The translations under genes were made by a program, and so were the position numbers. Below, in pieces: positions 10,621 to 34,854 of a stretch of 56,181 nt of DNA (its first letter is position 1; each line of letters opens with the position of its first letter). A model generated the notes under the pieces. The model saw only the letters and a program-made list of their open reading frames with translations. It did no database searches and was not told the origin of the DNA. The DNA is from an uncultured Chlamydiae bacterium (GTDB lineage Bacteria > Chlamydiota > Chlamydiia > Chlamydiales > SM23-39), in contig CALBPE010000013.1 of assembly GCA_937899275.1 (NCBI GenBank), positions 1 through 56,181 of the forward strand, read 5' to 3'.

Positions 10621-11637
10621 ATGATTTTGCCCCTATCTTTGACACAAAAACCCTCTTTTTCCATCCCAACAAGGCTGCGTAGGCTGCGCTCTAGCTCCGC
10701 TATTCGAACCTTAGTTGAAGAGACCACCTTGCAGAAAAAAGATTTTGTGCAGCCTCTTTTCCTACAAGAAGGCAAATGTTCCATAGAAGAAATCACATCG
10801 ATGCCCCATGTGTTTCGCTATTCGATAGACGAAGCAAAAAAGAAAATCGCCTTTTGTCTAGAAAAAGGCATTTTCAGCTTCGCGCTTTTTCCTGTCATTT
10901 CCCACGAAAAAAAATCTTTCCATGCTAGAGAAGCTCTTTCTGAAGAAGGGGTGATTCCACAAGCGCTAATCGAGCTAAAAAAAAGCTTTCCCGAAGCGTA
11001 TTTTATCGTAGATATTGCGCTGGATCCCTACACCTCACATGGCCACGACGGCTTGCTGGATGAGAGGGGAGAAGTGGCAAACGATCCCACAATCGACGTC
11101 TTACAAAAAATGTCGATTCTCTACGCTTCTTGTGGAGCTGATATGCTAGCTCCAAGCGATATGATGGATGGAAGAATCGGCTGCATACGAAAAGCGCTCG
11201 ATGATGCAGGATGGCAGGCGGCAGCGCTTTTATCCTACAGCGCAAAATATGCATCTACCTTCTACGGCCCTTTTCGAAATGCGGTAAAAGCGGGGTCTTT
11301 ACAAGGGACAAAAGCCTCTTACCAGCTAAATCCTGCAAATAAAAGAGAAGCGCTTTTAGAAGCAGAGCTTGATGCAAAAGAACATGCCGATATCCTCATG
11401 ATCAAGCCTGCAGGCCATTATGTAGACATCATCTCATCTATCAAATCTCAGACAAAACGGCCTATAGCTGCGTACCACGTCAGCGGCGAGTATGCGATGA
11501 TTTTAGCAGCTGAAGAAAAAGGGATTTTCTCTGCAGAAAAAGCGTTTTTTGAAGTGTTTTTAAGCATCAAAAGGGCGGGAGCTGATCTTATTTTCACCTA
11601 TGCAATTGACTATATCCTGCCTTATTTAGAAAAGTAA
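10621..11637 (+). CDS. hemB: Porphobilinogen synthase (delta-aminolevulinate dehydratase)
   Basis: 338-aa ORF with RLRRLR...IRTLVEET, QPLF and an active-site region (MIKPAGHYVDII, AAYHVSGEYAM). AAGGAAGG lies immediately upstream of the ATG. Confidence 0.93.
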   Translation: MILPLSLTQKPSFSIPTRLRRLRSSSAIRTLVEETTLQKKDFVQPLFLQEGKCSIEEITSMPHVFRYSIDEAKKKIAFCLEKGIFSFALFPVISHEKKSFHAREALSEEGVIPQALIELKKSFPEAYFIVDIALDPYTSHGHDGLLDERGEVANDPTIDVLQKMSILYASCGADMLAPSDMMDGRIGCIRKALDDAGWQAAALLSYSAKYASTFYGPFRNAVKAGSLQGTKASYQLNPANKREALLEAELDAKEHADILMIKPAGHYVDIISSIKSQTKRPIAAYHVSGEYAMILAAEEKGIFSAEKAFFEVFLSIKRAGADLIFTYAIDYILPYLEK

Positions 11638-31540: not shown

Positions 31541-32141
31541 AGCTACTTTTTATACAAGAGAGAGGGGGAAATTTCGAGTGTTTTTTTAGAAAAGATCCAG
31601 GATTGATTACGCTATTGCAGCCAATCTGAGAAAAATCTCCCAAAATAGCTCCGAGTTTTTTTCGTCCTGTGGGCTTTCCTTCAAGATGGATTTCTTTTTT
31701 GTCTAACCGGACGTTAGCAAACACTACGCCTGCGCCTAAAAGCGCATTTTTTCCCACAATAGAGTCGCCGATATAGGCAAAATGCGCCGCCTGAACGCCT
31801 TCAAATAAAAAAGAGCCCTTTACCTCAGTGCTATGACCGATCATCGATCCAGGGCCAATAAAACTACCTTCTCGAACGTATGCGCTCTGTCTAATGGTAG
31901 AGCCTTTGCAGATCACACAAGGTCCTTTAATCGTTGTGAATTTTTCTACAACCACTCCTTTTTCGATGTAGATTTCAGATGAATTTTGTAAATCGACTTC
32001 TTCAGGAATAACAGAGGCAATCGTTCCTAAAGGATACTGAGATAAGATTGTATTTAGATGAGAGAGGATATGCCATACAGGAAGATGAGTATCGTAACCT
32101 TTTAGATAAACGGAAGGGGAGAAAAATTCAGAGAAATCCAT
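31527..32141 (-). CDS. Left-handed beta-helix (hexapeptide-repeat) protein, GlmU C-terminal-like
   Basis: 204-aa ORF with imperfect hexapeptide repeats (IGPGSMIGHSTEV, IGDSIVGKNALLGAGVV). It overlaps the ispA start by 14 nt. I recall a glmU-like/ispA pairing in Chlamydia as well. Confidence 0.6.
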   Translation of the reverse strand: MDFSEFFSPSVYLKGYDTHLPVWHILSHLNTILSQYPLGTIASVIPEEVDLQNSSEIYIEKGVVVEKFTTIKGPCVICKGSTIRQSAYVREGSFIGPGSMIGHSTEVKGSFLFEGVQAAHFAYIGDSIVGKNALLGAGVVFANVRLDKKEIHLEGKPTGRKKLGAILGDFSQIGCNSVINPGSFLKKHSKFPPLSCIKSSYASY

Positions 32142-32258
32142 ACCTGAAGTATATAGACAACTCTACTGATACGCAAGAAGATCTACTTTTTGTTTTGAAC
32201 AGCGCATCTCATCTATACTAAAGAAACTCTCTCTTTATACTCTTCTTCTTTTATAGGC

Positions 32259-32414
32259 TGTGGAAGTGTTCATAAGTACCCCATTTCTCTTGATAAAACA
32301 AGGTGTTCATAAACTGTTTATAAGTTGATCATAACCTTCAAGTTATGAACGAACTTTTTTTATGAACAATCTTATGAACAAAGGCCCAGGGGAGCTGTGA
32401 ACAAGTTTTCCACA
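32259..32414. promoter_or_regulatory. Array of DnaA-box-like 9-mers in symmetric arrangement
   Basis: Left half: TGTGGAAG at 32259; TGTTCATAA at 32267 and 32304; TGTTTATAA at 32315; TGATCATAA at 32326. Right half, in the opposite orientation: TTATGAACG at 32343; TTATGAACA at 32360 and 32372. Then the convergent pair TGTGAACAA (32396) and TTTTCCACA (32406, matching the TTWTNCACA consensus). Confidence 0.5.
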
Positions 32415-32430
32415 GTTTTTCCCCTCTTAT

Positions 32431-33663
32431 TTAGCGCACTTTACTTAAATAAAATAGGACAAGAGCGGCTAAAGCGGCAAAAGAGGCAAGTAAAAATGGG
32501 GCGTACAAATACAAAAATGTCAGCACAGCAAATAAAGGCGATATCGCCATAGCAAATGACTGCATCGATTGGCTTACTCCTAGCACTTTTCCCTGCATTG
32601 CATTGCCTGCTTTTTGAGAGATGATGTTTGTGCAAATAGGCCAAGAAACCGCTGAAAACACGATAGCTAAAGAGATATTGAGTACAAGGAGCCATGAGGT
32701 CTTAGCAAATACCACAGTAAAGCAAAGCGCGCTAAATGCGCTTAAACAAATGAGTAGTATGTTTCTTGGAGAAATATAATGCATAGCTAGTTTGCTTATA
32801 ATCCCTGCACCTACTGCCCAAGATACGCCGACAAATGCGATGAACATACCTAGCTCTGATGGAGAAAACGCGAAAGTATTTACCGCAATAACAGGAGCAA
32901 ACTGCATGAGAAGGTTCCAAGCGATCAAAAAAAGGAGGTAGATGAGATAGATTGTTTTGATGTTTTCTGTTTGCAACGCGAGTTTAATCTGATGAAAACT
33001 CTCCAAAAAATGGAAGTGGACATCAGGTTTTTTCTCATAGGATTCTTGAAAAAAACAGGCTACAAAAACCAAATTGACGAGAGTTATCCCTGCACCAATC
33101 CAAAAGGGAAGGGCAAAAGAAAATAAGGGACTTAGAGCCGTATCGGAAAATTTTCCCCCTAAAAACGCGCCTAAAATAAACGCCGTTCCTGCGCATACAG
33201 CAAGAGAGCCAAAATGCTTGACCCGCTCTTTTTCTCCAGTACTTAAATCTGCTGCAGCTGCAAGACAAATGGATAAGTTTCCTGAAAAAAGACCTGATAA
33301 AAGCCTGCTGAAAAACAGCAGGACTAAGGCTTGATATTCCATAGCAAAAGCGGAGAGGAAAAATCCTAAAGAGGTCAGAGATATCGTGCATAAAAGTGCT
33401 TTTCTTCTGCCGTTTTTGTCAGCAAATTCTCCAATGATAGGCGCTCCAAAGAACTGTCCCAAGGGAAACGCGCTTAAAAACACCCCTAAAAGGGCGGTTC
33501 TTGCAGCGACGCTTAAATCTGGAAAATGCAGTACATCGGGATTTAAAAAATACGGCGCAAATACCGGAAAGACGATAGCCCAAGATAGATTATCGACAAA
33601 AAATGTGAAAAAAATAGCCAGTAGCCTTAGCTTGCGGACTTTTTTTTGTAGACGGCGTTCCAT
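32431..33663 (-). CDS. MFS transporter (TetA/drug:H+ antiporter-like)
   Basis: 410-aa ORF with about 12 TM segments. It has an MFS motif-A-like GEFADKNGRRKAL between TM2 and TM3. Confidence 0.8.
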   Translation of the reverse strand: MERRLQKKVRKLRLLAIFFTFFVDNLSWAIVFPVFAPYFLNPDVLHFPDLSVAARTALLGVFLSAFPLGQFFGAPIIGEFADKNGRRKALLCTISLTSLGFFLSAFAMEYQALVLLFFSRLLSGLFSGNLSICLAAAADLSTGEKERVKHFGSLAVCAGTAFILGAFLGGKFSDTALSPLFSFALPFWIGAGITLVNLVFVACFFQESYEKKPDVHFHFLESFHQIKLALQTENIKTIYLIYLLFLIAWNLLMQFAPVIAVNTFAFSPSELGMFIAFVGVSWAVGAGIISKLAMHYISPRNILLICLSAFSALCFTVVFAKTSWLLVLNISLAIVFSAVSWPICTNIISQKAGNAMQGKVLGVSQSMQSFAMAISPLFAVLTFLYLYAPFLLASFAALAALVLFYLSKVR

Positions 33664-34499: not shown

Positions 34500-34778
34500 A
34501 TGGAAAATTTAGACGAAAATAATGTGATCCGATTTAAAAATATCTCCAAGAAAAAAGAGGGTTTTTTTGCTCATTTCCAAGTAAAAGCAGTGCGCAATGG
34601 CGTGACTATATCCGCCTCTTTATCTGTGGATATCTTATCCCATGAACTGCATTTAGGCGATGTAATGGAAAAAATCATCGCAGAGTGTGCAAAAATTGGT
34701 TTAAGAGAGTTGAAAAGGGCAGATTACACATTAGAAGGCATTGAAGATCTTTCTCTGGGTGTGGCGCAGCTTGGATAG
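34500..34778 (+). CDS. Small hypothetical protein (92 aa)
   Basis: The ATG at 34500 is preceded by AAGAGGAG. I recognise no family. The last 24 nt overlap the 5' half of tRNA-Pro, which lowers confidence. Confidence 0.3.
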   Translation: MENLDENNVIRFKNISKKKEGFFAHFQVKAVRNGVTISASLSVDILSHELHLGDVMEKIIAECAKIGLRELKRADYTLEGIEDLSLGVAQLG

Positions 34779-34829
34779 CGCGCTTGCATGGGGTGCAAGA
34801 GGTCGGAGGTTCAAATCCTCTCACCCAGA
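34755..34829 (+). tRNA. tRNA-Pro (anticodon GGG)
   Basis: The hand-folded cloverleaf is complete. Acceptor CTGGGTG/CACCCAG with C1:G72; D arm GCGC-AGCTTGGATA-GCGC; anticodon arm CTTGC-AT GGG GT-GCAAG; T arm GGAGG-TTCAAAT-CCTCT; discriminator A. No CCA is encoded. Confidence 0.85.
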
Positions 34830-34854
34830 TATTTTTCAGTGGTTTTCAATGAGG

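What the first reader, a model, noticed from the sequence alone, without database searches (positions are those of the whole stretch)
32259..32414. Symmetric array of about ten DnaA-box-like 9-mers in one intergenic region: candidate oriC, DnaA-titration site or centromere
Within 156 bp the motif TGTTCATAA (or a one-off variant) occurs four times on the left (32267, 32304, 32315, 32326). Its complement TTATGAACA/G occurs three times on the right (32343, 32360, 32372), giving nested inverted symmetry about ~32338. A head-to-head pair follows: TGTGAACAA (= TTGTTCACA on the other strand) and TTTTCCACA. TTTTCCACA fits the DnaA-box consensus TTWTNCACA exactly, while TTGTTCACA and TTATGAACA are each one mismatch away. 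TGTGGAAG at 32259 is a further half-match. No other intergenic region in the window shows anything comparable. The array lies between the 3' end of an MFS gene and the promoter side of the glmU-like/ispA operon. It is 2.4 kb from the parA/pGP6-D pair. It is 21 kb from hemB, the gene next to which, as I recall, several Chlamydiaceae annotations placed the putative origin. The alternatives are a replication origin or DnaA reservoir, an operator array for an unknown regulator, or a parS-like centromere for the non-canonical ParA partner.
Basis: partly seen in the sequence, partly recalled or inferred. Interest (0 to 1): 0.6.

Follow-up and report, generated by a model that had tools for sequence, protein, structure and literature searches.

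The report
Chromosomal replication origin of a chlamydial genome
The cluster of 9-letter repeats is almost certainly the place where this chlamydia-like bacterium starts copying its chromosome, and its core is conserved across the whole chlamydial phylum but differs in one respect from the textbook bacterial origin.

Summary
The 289-bp spacer 32142-32430 holds 12 DnaA-box-like 9-mers. It is the densest such cluster in the 1.47-Mb assembly: 6 strict matches in 200 bp against 0.066 expected.

The oriC reading is strongly supported:
- The contig's GC skew switches from -0.036 to +0.024 at 30-32 kb (p = 2e-5).
- A 65-nt core lies at 32221-32276 (- strand): TTATGAACA-CTTCCACAG, a spacer, AAGAAGAAG, then an AT-rich stretch.
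- A model of this core matches 143 of 151 chlamydial genomes, usually at one locus.
- In complete genomes the core sits at the skew switch (9 of 10), within 24-188 bp of the cumulative minimum in four.
- In Chlamydiaceae-sized genomes it lies about 150 bp from hemB, where DoriC/Ori-Finder place the chlamydial origin.

The genome has two DnaA paralogues, no ParB and no canonical parS.

As an origin this is a new member of a known kind. The tandem boxes copy Bacillus subtilis boxes 6/7. The adjoining 3-nt repeat, (GAA)3-4, lies on the opposite strand from canonical DnaA-trios. I found no description of this.

No binding or replication experiment exists. The mechanism is inferred.

The parts
32193..32414 (.). 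Whole predicted oriC: DnaA-box cluster plus unwinding core. It fills most of the 289-bp spacer between the glmU-like (LbH) gene start at 32141 and the MFS gene stop at 32431.
32193..32201 (+). TTTTGAACA, a DnaA-box-like 9-mer. It converges on the tandem boxes and bounds the AT-rich core on the glmU side.
   Evidence: An inverted box (TGTGGR or TGTTNAWAA) lies at the same fixed offset, about 39-41 nt after the purine repeat, in about half or more of 43 related modules. TGTGGR alone occurs in 22 of 43 against 3% expected by chance.
32202..32239 (.). AT-rich core and presumed DNA-unwinding element. The - strand reads TATAAAGAGAGAGTTTCTTTAGTATAGATGAGATGCGC. It is 60-73% A+T here and more AT-rich (TATATA-type) in relatives.
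32240..32252 (-). Purine trinucleotide repeat AAAAGAAGAAGAG, of (GAA)n type. It lies on the same strand as the 5'-TTATGAACA-3' box, in fixed register with it.
   Evidence: Alignment A2 columns 28-37 are 84-100% conserved as AAGAAGAAGA. 33 of 43 modules have at least 3 perfect units.
32253..32258 (-). Short spacer (GCCTAT on the - strand) between the tandem boxes and the purine repeat.
32259..32266 (-). Box '7': CTTCCACA. Its CCACA core is 93-100% conserved, and it abuts box '6'.
32267..32275 (-). Box '6': TTATGAACA. The phylum consensus is TTAT[C/G/A]AACA.
   Evidence: DoriC uses TTATCAACA as the standard box for Parachlamydia and Simkania (supplement of PMC8287927).
32304..32334 (-). Three boxes in one helical phase, 11-bp spacing. 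On the - strand they read TTATGAACA (32304-32312), TTATAAACA (32315-32323) and TTATGATCA (32326-32334).
   Evidence: The same arrangement, TTNTAAACA-nn-TTATSAACA followed about 28 nt later by boxes 6/7, is seen in relatives.
32343..32380 (+). Three boxes in the opposite orientation: TTATGAACG (32343-32351), TTATGAACA (32360-32368) and TTATGAACA (32372-32380).
32396..32414 (.). Head-to-head pair: TTGTTCACA (- strand, 32396-32404) and TTTTCCACA (+ strand, 32406-32414). The latter is the box Ori-Finder proposes for Chlamydiae.
   Evidence: PMC2275245. A TGTGGAAAA box at the distal end of the array recurs in relatives.

Best explanation
This is the chromosomal replication origin (oriC) of a chlamydial genome.

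Shown:
- A unique cluster of DnaA-box-like 9-mers of two classes: TTAT[C/G/A]AACA and (T)TCCACA.
- A conserved core in which two boxes in tandem (TTATGAACA-CTTCCACA) are followed by a 6-7 nt spacer, a (GAA)3-4 repeat in fixed register, and about 35-40 bp of AT-rich DNA closed by a convergent box.
- Position at the GC-skew switch, here and in relatives.

Inferred:
- DnaA binds the boxes. The genome has two paralogues, encoded on other contigs.
- The tandem pair next to the AT-rich core nucleates a DnaA oligomer that melts the AT-rich core.
- The distal boxes, some in 11-bp phase and in both orientations, load further DnaA and may loop onto the core, as in Bacillus subtilis incC.
- The replicative helicase is then loaded on both strands.

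Open question: which strand of the (GAA)n/(TTC)n element DnaA engages.
For: 1. Densest box cluster in the genome: 6 per 200 bp against 0.066 expected. The box+GAA module is unique in 1.47 Mb.

2. Contig GC skew is -0.036 on the left and +0.024 on the right (t-test p = 2.4e-5). The best split is at 30-32 kb. It is the strongest V-shape among contigs of at least 15 kb.

3. The core is found upstream of the glmU-like gene in 26 of 30 genomes from many families.

4. A sequence model of the core (R1) matches 143 of 151 and 98 of 101 chlamydial genomes, mostly at one locus each.

5. In 10 complete genomes of 7 families, mean skew switches from - to + at the module in 9. The cumulative minimum lies within 24-188 bp in G138, G094, G205 and G066.

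6. Where the module is 3.6-7.5 kb from the glmU-like gene (f35 genomes, L065), the skew minimum follows the module.

7. In f35 genomes, which are Chlamydiaceae-sized, the module is about 150 bp from hemB. That matches the published prediction that chlamydial oriCs adjoin hemB (PMC4009838).

8. Several complete genomes start their numbering at the module, at bases 45-230.

9. The tandem boxes reproduce B. subtilis DnaA-box 6/7: TTATCCACA-AATCCACA-GGCC against TTATCAACA-AATCCACAG-C.

10. Two dnaA paralogues are present here and in 12 of 12 relatives tested.
Against: - There is no experimental evidence. No DnaA binding, unwinding or marker-frequency data exist for this or any chlamydial origin in the papers I could search. 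DnaA ChIP-seq in Waddlia failed (PMC4989314).
- The assembly is fragmented into 122 contigs, so the skew test is local. The cumulative minimum on the contig (29.5 kb) is 2.7 kb from the core, on a flat plateau.
- Two other contigs (C26, C11) also show weaker V-shapes.
- In one complete relative (G113) there is no skew switch at the module, and in another (G040) it is noisy.
- The AT-rich core of this genome is only 60-73% A+T.
- The purine repeat lies on the opposite strand from canonical DnaA-trios, so the textbook unwinding mechanism cannot simply be transferred.
Confidence: 0.88

Rival explanations
1. Centromere (parS-like site) for the nearby non-canonical partition pair, ParA plus the UPF0137/pGP6-D-like protein. 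The TTATGAACA repeats would be bound by the pGP6-D-like protein rather than, or as well as, by DnaA.
For: - The genome lacks ParB (PF02195) and has no canonical parS even at 2 mismatches, so the ParA/UPF0137 pair needs some other site.
- The pair lies 2.4 kb away here and 5-17 kb from the module in six complete relatives.
- Phased 11-bp direct repeats in two opposed groups resemble some plasmid centromeres (my knowledge of R1 parC).
Against: - The box directly abutting CTTCCACA has the exact geometry of DnaA boxes 6/7 of B. subtilis.
- TTATCAACA is already used as the DnaA box for Parachlamydia and Simkania in DoriC.
- The ParA/CT583 operon on the Simkania plasmid pSn has no TTATNAACA cluster within 4 kb on either side: 1 match in 8.4 kb.
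- In f35 genomes no UPF0137/ParA homologue was found within 40 kb of the module.
Confidence: 0.05
2. Operator/promoter array for an unknown transcription factor controlling the glmU-like/ispA operon. The skew change would be a by-product of gene orientation.
For: - The array lies on the promoter side of the operon here and in most environmental chlamydiae.
- Phased direct and inverted repeats are typical of operators.
Against: - In Chlamydiaceae-sized genomes and in L065 the element is 3.6-7.5 kb away from the operon, next to hemB, and still marks the skew minimum.
- No sigma-70-like promoter is detected in the spacer.
- Known chlamydial TF motifs (HrcA CIRCE, PhoB, Euo; PMC4989314) do not resemble the boxes.
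- Conservation of a non-coding 65-mer across a phylum is unusual for an operator of a biosynthetic operon.
Confidence: 0.04
3. DnaA reservoir or titration site (datA/DARS-like), or a DnaA-regulated promoter, rather than the site of initiation.
For: A cluster of DnaA boxes does not by itself define an origin. DnaA-box clusters with regulatory roles exist in E. coli and B. subtilis (established knowledge).
Against: - It coincides with skew switches in many genomes.
- A conserved AT-rich core bracketed by convergent boxes is attached.
- No second comparable cluster in the genome could serve as the real origin.
Confidence: 0.03

Closest known systems
Predicted chlamydial oriC of DoriC/Ori-Finder, adjacent to hemB (PMC2275245, PMC4009838)
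   Same: - Same conserved core: in Chlamydiaceae-sized genomes the module found here lies about 150 bp from hemB, at the skew minimum.
- Same proposed boxes: TTTTCCACA for Chlamydiae and TTATCAACA for Parachlamydia and Simkania.
   Different: - In this genome hemB is 21 kb away. The origin keeps the glmU-like/ispA/recA neighbourhood instead, as in most environmental chlamydiae.
- Those predictions rest on skew plus box counts. I found no description of the conserved core architecture.
Bacillus subtilis oriC incC basal unwinding system: DnaA-boxes 6/7, GC spacer, DnaA-trios, AT-rich region (PMC6669920, PMC8287927)
   Same: - Two tandem boxes, with the upstream one closer to consensus and directly abutting the second: TTATCCACA-AATCCACA against TTATSAACA-WWTCCACA.
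- A short G/C-containing spacer.
- A 3-nt-periodic repeat in fixed register, followed by an AT-rich stretch.
- Additional distal boxes in either orientation.
   Different: - In B. subtilis the trios (3'-GAT-5') are on the strand complementary to 5'-TTATCCACA-3'. Here that strand reads 3'-CTT-5', and the purine repeat 5'-GAA-3' is on the box strand.
- The spacer is about 7 nt, not 4.
- A convergent box closes the core about 60 bp away.
- The published BUS-finding program returned only low-scoring, different sites for chlamydiae: trio scores of 3-10 against 25 for B. subtilis.
E. coli oriC, R1 box plus DUE (single-strand DUE recruitment)
   Same: From my knowledge of Ozaki and Katayama's work: the strand that carries 5'-TGTGGATAA-3' is the pyrimidine/T-rich DUE strand that DnaA binds. 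In chlamydiae the equivalent strand is 5'-TTCTTCTTC-3'.
   Different: - E. coli has no tandem box 6/7 pair abutting the DUE.
- It uses 13-mers and IHF.
- It has no 3-nt purine repeat.
- The comparison is from memory and was not tested here.
ParB/parS chromosomal centromere
   Same: Origin-proximal position; short repeats with inverted symmetry.
   Different: - No 16-bp TGTTNCACGTGAAACA palindrome at up to 2 mismatches in the genome.
- No ParB N-terminal domain gene.

Membership tests
DnaA-dependent bacterial chromosomal origin (oriC) | Cluster of DnaA boxes beyond chance | tested here: met
   6 TTWTNMACA matches in 200 bp against 0.066 expected. It is the top window of the genome. 12 box-like 9-mers lie in 222 bp.
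DnaA-dependent bacterial chromosomal origin (oriC) | Adjacent AT-rich unwinding element | tested here: inconclusive
   A conserved AT-rich stretch follows the tandem boxes in 43 aligned modules. In this genome it is only 60-73% A+T. Unwinding was not tested.
DnaA-dependent bacterial chromosomal origin (oriC) | Location at the leading/lagging strand switch (GC-skew minimum) | tested here: met
   - Contig: -0.036 on the left, +0.024 on the right, p = 2.4e-5, split at 30-32 kb.
- Relatives: the switch is at the module in 9 of 10 complete genomes, within 24-188 bp in four.
- The whole-genome skew of this assembly cannot be computed, because it has 122 contigs.
DnaA-dependent bacterial chromosomal origin (oriC) | Genome encodes DnaA | tested here: met
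   Two PF00308 genes, on C113 (444 aa) and C87 (416 aa).
DnaA-dependent bacterial chromosomal origin (oriC) | DnaA binding, origin unwinding, initiation in vivo | not testable with these tools
   No experimental data found. Waddlia DnaA ChIP-seq was of too poor quality to call targets (PMC4989314).
Basal unwinding system (BUS) as defined by Richardson/Pelliciari/Murray | One or two DnaA boxes immediately upstream of the repeat, in tandem, with the upstream one nearer consensus | tested here: met
   TTATGAACA-CTTCCACA at 32275-32259 (- strand). The CCACA core is 93-100% invariant over 43 modules.
Basal unwinding system (BUS) as defined by Richardson/Pelliciari/Murray | At least three DnaA-trios (3'-NAN-5', typically 3'-GAT-5') within 16 bp of the box, on the strand complementary to 5'-TTATCCACA-3' | tested here: not met
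   On that strand the repeat reads 3'-CTTCTTCTT-5', with no central A in any frame. The A-centred repeat (GAA) is on the box strand. It works like a BUS in layout but fails this defining feature.
Chlamydial oriC as predicted in DoriC (next to hemB) | Orthology of the core sequence with the hemB-adjacent element of Chlamydiaceae | tested here: met
   Model R1 hits f35 genomes at E of about 1e-12, about 150 bp from hemB and at the skew minimum.
Chlamydial oriC as predicted in DoriC (next to hemB) | Adjacency to hemB | tested here: not met
   hemB is at 10621-11637, 20.6 kb away. No module lies next to it.
ParB/parS centromere | parS palindrome and a ParB gene | tested here: not met

The most novel reading that the evidence does not exclude
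Chlamydial origins may use a phylum-wide variant of the bacterial origin-unwinding module.

- Next to the tandem DnaA boxes, the 3-nt-periodic element is (GAA)3-4 on the box strand. That places 3'-CTT-5' where canonical DnaA-trios 3'-GAT-5' sit.
- The roughly 60-bp core is closed by a convergent box and is often mirror-symmetric: box>, GAA, AT-rich, TTC, <box.
- The two box classes, TTATSAACA and TTCCACA, may be read by the two DnaA paralogues that every chlamydial genome tested carries.
- The recognition helices of the paralogues differ from the canonical R-D-H-T-T-V-L-H in different ways. DnaA-a has K-T-H-S-T-L-L-H, losing Asp433. DnaA-b has R-D-H-S-T-V-M-S, losing His439.

That would make it a dual-initiator origin with reversed or altered single-strand recognition.
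Probability: 0.25. Interest if true: 0.7.

Novelty: new member of a known kind. Interest (0 to 1): 0.4.

Why it matters
**Annotation.** This fixes the origin of an uncultured chlamydial genome. It also gives a simple, portable marker for oriC in chlamydial MAGs: a 65-nt core found in about 95% of genomes. Fragmentation prevents whole-genome skew analysis in such assemblies. The origin is linked to glmU-like/ispA/recA in environmental lineages and to hemB in Chlamydiaceae.

**Replication biology.** Chlamydiae have two DnaA paralogues, their dnaA genes lie far from oriC, and no origin has been characterised experimentally. A precisely delimited, phylum-conserved core makes two questions directly testable with short oligonucleotides and recombinant proteins:
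- how a developmental-cycle bacterium fires its origin;
- what each DnaA paralogue does.

The core offers defined box classes and a repeat of non-canonical strand polarity to work with.

Tried and rejected
- **Rfam scan** of 31900-32700: no RNA family.
- **Promoter/terminator scan:** no promoter-like site. There is one weak terminator-like hairpin at 32389-32411, formed by the head-to-head box pair.
- **Single-strand fold** of the core: no more stable than shuffles, z = -0.06, so there is no hairpin or cruciform signal in this genome.
- **parS and ParB searches:** negative.
- **Known chlamydial regulator motifs** (HrcA, PhoB, Euo): no resemblance.
- **A hand-made regular expression** for the module missed real copies, for example in G066. 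It also hit many coding GAA-rich stretches, so it was replaced by the calibrated model R1.
- **The glmU-like protein is not chlamydia-specific.** The named-genome scan returned many Firmicutes and Verrucomicrobia loci without the module.
- **Two Thermodesulfobacterium loci** showed a skew change near their homologue but have no box cluster. This was dismissed as a gene-orientation effect.
- **Marker-frequency analysis from public reads:** not attempted. A 56-kb contig spans about 4% of the chromosome, too little for a measurable depth gradient, and the terminus contig is unknown.
- **Literature searches**: no experimental study of a chlamydial oriC and no description of the GAA core. The library lacks most subscription journals, so this absence is not proof.

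Full report
**What is in the sequence**

The finding lies in the 289-bp spacer 32142-32430. On one side is the start of a 204-aa left-handed-beta-helix (glmU-like) gene, followed by ispA; both are on the - strand. On the other side is the stop of an MFS transporter gene, also on the - strand. recA, glucokinase, UDG, tRNA-Pro(GGG), a UPF0137/pGP6-D-like gene, ParA and thrS lie around it. hemB is at 10621-11637.

Counting one-mismatch variants, there are 12 DnaA-box-like 9-mers between 32193 and 32414:
- TTTTGAACA (+) at 32193.
- CTTCCACA and TTATGAACA (-) at 32259-32275.
- Three - strand boxes at 32304, 32315 and 32326, 11 bp apart.
- Three + strand boxes at 32343, 32360 and 32372.
- A head-to-head pair, TTGTTCACA (-) and TTTTCCACA (+), at 32396-32414.

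**Is it more than chance?**

The window is the whole of contig C13 of a 1.47-Mb, 40% G+C assembly in 122 contigs.

TTATGAACA is not enriched genome-wide. There are 22 copies, against about 25 expected from base composition. But 4 of the 22 lie within 114 bp here.

A 200-bp window here holds 6 matches to TTWTNMACA against a genomic density of 0.066 per 200 bp. The next best window in the genome has 3. The clustering is therefore highly non-random.

**Local strand asymmetry**

The cumulative GC skew of the contig is V-shaped, with a flat minimum between 29.5 and 33 kb. In 1-kb bins the skew is -0.036 ± 0.010 left of 32.26 kb and +0.024 ± 0.008 right of it (Welch t-test p = 2.4e-5). The best two-mean split is at 30-32 kb. 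This is the strongest V among all contigs of at least 15 kb, although C26 and C11 show weaker ones.

Gene orientation agrees modestly. From the ORF list, I count about 59% of coding bases co-oriented with a leftward fork on the left and about 63% with a rightward fork on the right.

**Conservation**

The spacer DNA itself found short matches upstream of the glmU-like gene in other families. I collected the upstream 400 nt of that gene from 30 genomes of many families. In 26 of them the same architecture appears:
- arrays of TTATNAACA-type boxes in both orientations;
- then a tightly conserved core: TTAT[C/G/A]AACA, WWT, CCACA(G), a roughly 7-nt spacer, (GAA)3-4, and an AT-rich stretch.

An alignment of 43 such modules needs almost no gaps. 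The box positions and the AAGAAGAAGA block are 84-100% conserved in fixed register. These 43 were picked with a pattern, so they are partly ascertained.

The unbiased test is the calibrated sequence model R1 built from them. It matches 143 of 151 genomes of the order and 98 of 101 in a second draw, usually at a single locus. In the window it matches only 32221-32276 on the - strand (E = 3.9e-10). The box+GAA module is unique in the whole assembly.

**The module marks the origin in complete genomes**

I fetched 40 kb on either side of the module in ten complete or near-complete genomes of seven families.
- In nine, the mean GC skew changes from negative to positive at the module.
- The cumulative minimum lies 24, 24, 34 and 188 bp from it in G138, G094, G205 and G066, the genomes with strong skew.
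- It lies 2.4-6 kb away in four others.
- G040 is noisy, and G113 shows no switch.

In the 1.0-1.2-Mb genomes of family f35 (Chlamydiaceae by size and contig number), the module is 3.6-3.7 kb from the glmU-like gene and about 150 bp from hemB. The skew minimum follows the module, not the operon. The same holds for locus L065.

This agrees with the published statements that chlamydial oriCs are predicted next to hemB (PMC4009838) and that TTTTCCACA is the proposed chlamydial DnaA box (PMC2275245). The supplement of PMC8287927 shows that DoriC uses TTATCAACA as the standard box for Parachlamydia and Simkania.

In several deposited complete genomes the module sits at bases 45-230 of contig 1, which is where depositors place a predicted origin.

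In this genome, and in the environmental lineages tested, the origin is instead linked to glmU-like/ispA/recA, with ParA/UPF0137 2-17 kb away.

**Comparison with the known unwinding module**

The supplement of PMC8287927 lists the B. subtilis basal unwinding system as 3'-AATAGGTGT-TTAGGTGT-CCGG-GATGATAATGAAGATGAT-5'. On the other strand that is 5'-TTATCCACA-AATCCACA-GGCC-CTACTATTAC...-3'.

The chlamydial consensus is 5'-TTATSAACA-WWTCCACAG-CnTCT-GAAGAAGAAG-3'. The tandem box 6/7 arrangement is thus almost letter for letter the same. The 3-nt repeat, however, is purine-rich on the box strand. The strand that should carry 3'-NAN-5' trios reads 3'-CTT-5'.

In B. subtilis, reversing boxes 6/7 relative to the trios inactivates the origin (PMC6669920), so this is not a trivial difference. 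The published BUS-finding program returned other, low-scoring sites for chlamydiae: trio scores of 3-10 against 25 for B. subtilis.

There is a second regularity. About 39-41 nt after the purine block there is a convergent box. It is TGTGGR in 22 of 43 modules against 3% expected, 21 of them within a 33-43 nt window, and a TGTTNAWAA-type box in several others, including TGTTCAAAA at 32193-32201 here. 24 of 43 modules also have a (TTC)n block mirroring the (GAA)n.

In Chlamydiaceae-sized genomes the model matches both strands at overlapping positions, so the core there is mirror-symmetric.

From memory (not tested here): in E. coli the DUE strand bound by DnaA is the T-rich strand that carries 5'-TGTGGATAA-3'. 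The equivalent chlamydial strand is 5'-TTCTTCTTC-3'. The element may therefore be closer to that mode than to A-centred trios.

**The initiators**

The genome has two dnaA genes on other contigs, 444 aa on C113 and 416 aa on C87. All 12 relatives tested have exactly one orthologue of each, far from the module.

I aligned them to E. coli domain IV (1J1V) and the M. tuberculosis domain (3PVP). The base-contacting helix, R432-D433-H434-T435-T436-V437-L438-H439, reads as follows (residue roles from PMC5043019):
- K-T-H-S-T-L-L-H in paralogue a. Position 433 is T in 12 of 14 sequences, counting this genome's own, and never D.
- R-D-H-S-T-V-M-S in paralogue b. Position 439 is S in all nine orthologues in which the motif was located.

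That the two paralogues prefer the two box classes is my speculation.

**Rivals**

- Centromere for ParA/UPF0137. This cannot be excluded as an additional function, because the genome has neither ParB nor a canonical parS. However, the ParA/CT583 operon of the Simkania plasmid pSn has no such boxes, and the boxes have DnaA-box geometry.
- Operator for the glmU-like/ispA operon. This is contradicted by the element's independence from that operon in three lineages.
- Pure DnaA reservoir. This is contradicted by the skew data and by the lack of any other candidate origin.
- An RNA. None was found.
- A promoter. No promoter-like site was found.
- A stable hairpin. The core folds no better than shuffles.

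**Verdict**

As an origin it is a new member of a known, computationally predicted kind. Its location relative to hemB differs from Chlamydiaceae.

What I could not find described is the phylum-wide core, with B. subtilis-like tandem boxes but a (GAA)n repeat of opposite strand polarity and a convergent closing box.

All mechanistic steps (DnaA binding, melting of 32202-32250, helicase loading) are inferred, not shown.

Noticed in passing
G211:C1:747041-747101 and 756427-756485 (loci L150/L151). Similar pairs occur in G133, G089, G185 and G169.: Genomes of one family (f29) carry two origin-like modules about 9.4-10 kb apart. In G211 one has its own box array about 140 bp upstream of hemB. The other lies next to tRNA and the glmU-like gene. 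The cumulative GC-skew minimum falls between them. This may be a duplicated or bipartite origin. It could also be the ancestral state from which Chlamydiaceae kept the hemB copy and other lineages kept the glmU copy.
   Followed up: partly
Loci L013, L014, L016, L019, L024, L028, L029; window 34754-34830: In many relatives a tRNA gene ends immediately at the distal TGTGGAAAA box of the origin array. In the window the only nearby tRNA is tRNA-Pro(GGG), which lies 2.3 kb away with the MFS and UDG genes in between. This suggests an insertion or rearrangement next to the origin in this lineage. I did not check whether the relatives' tRNA is also tRNA-Pro.
   Followed up: no
G000 contigs C113 (about 50 kb) and C87 (about 6.4 kb); loci L059, L060, L162-L185: The two DnaA paralogues have paralogue-specific substitutions in the DNA-recognition helix, conserved across about 10 genera. 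Asp433 is replaced (mostly by Thr) in one, and His439 by Ser in the other. Pro423 is Thr in both paralogues of this genome.
   Followed up: partly
G000 contig C5:32380-33020: This is the second-ranked box cluster of the genome: 3 TTWTNMACA matches in 200 bp, in an AT-rich non-coding-looking stretch. A weak CCCAC...GAAGAAGAA match lies about 400 bp further on. Model R1 gave no hit there at the thresholds used.
   Followed up: no
G000 contigs C26 (about 20.9 kb) and C11 (about 13.5 kb): Two other contigs show weaker V-shaped GC-skew changes. They have no box cluster or origin module. They may reflect inversions, local gene orientation or contamination (the assembly is rated 5.95% contaminated).
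   Followed up: no
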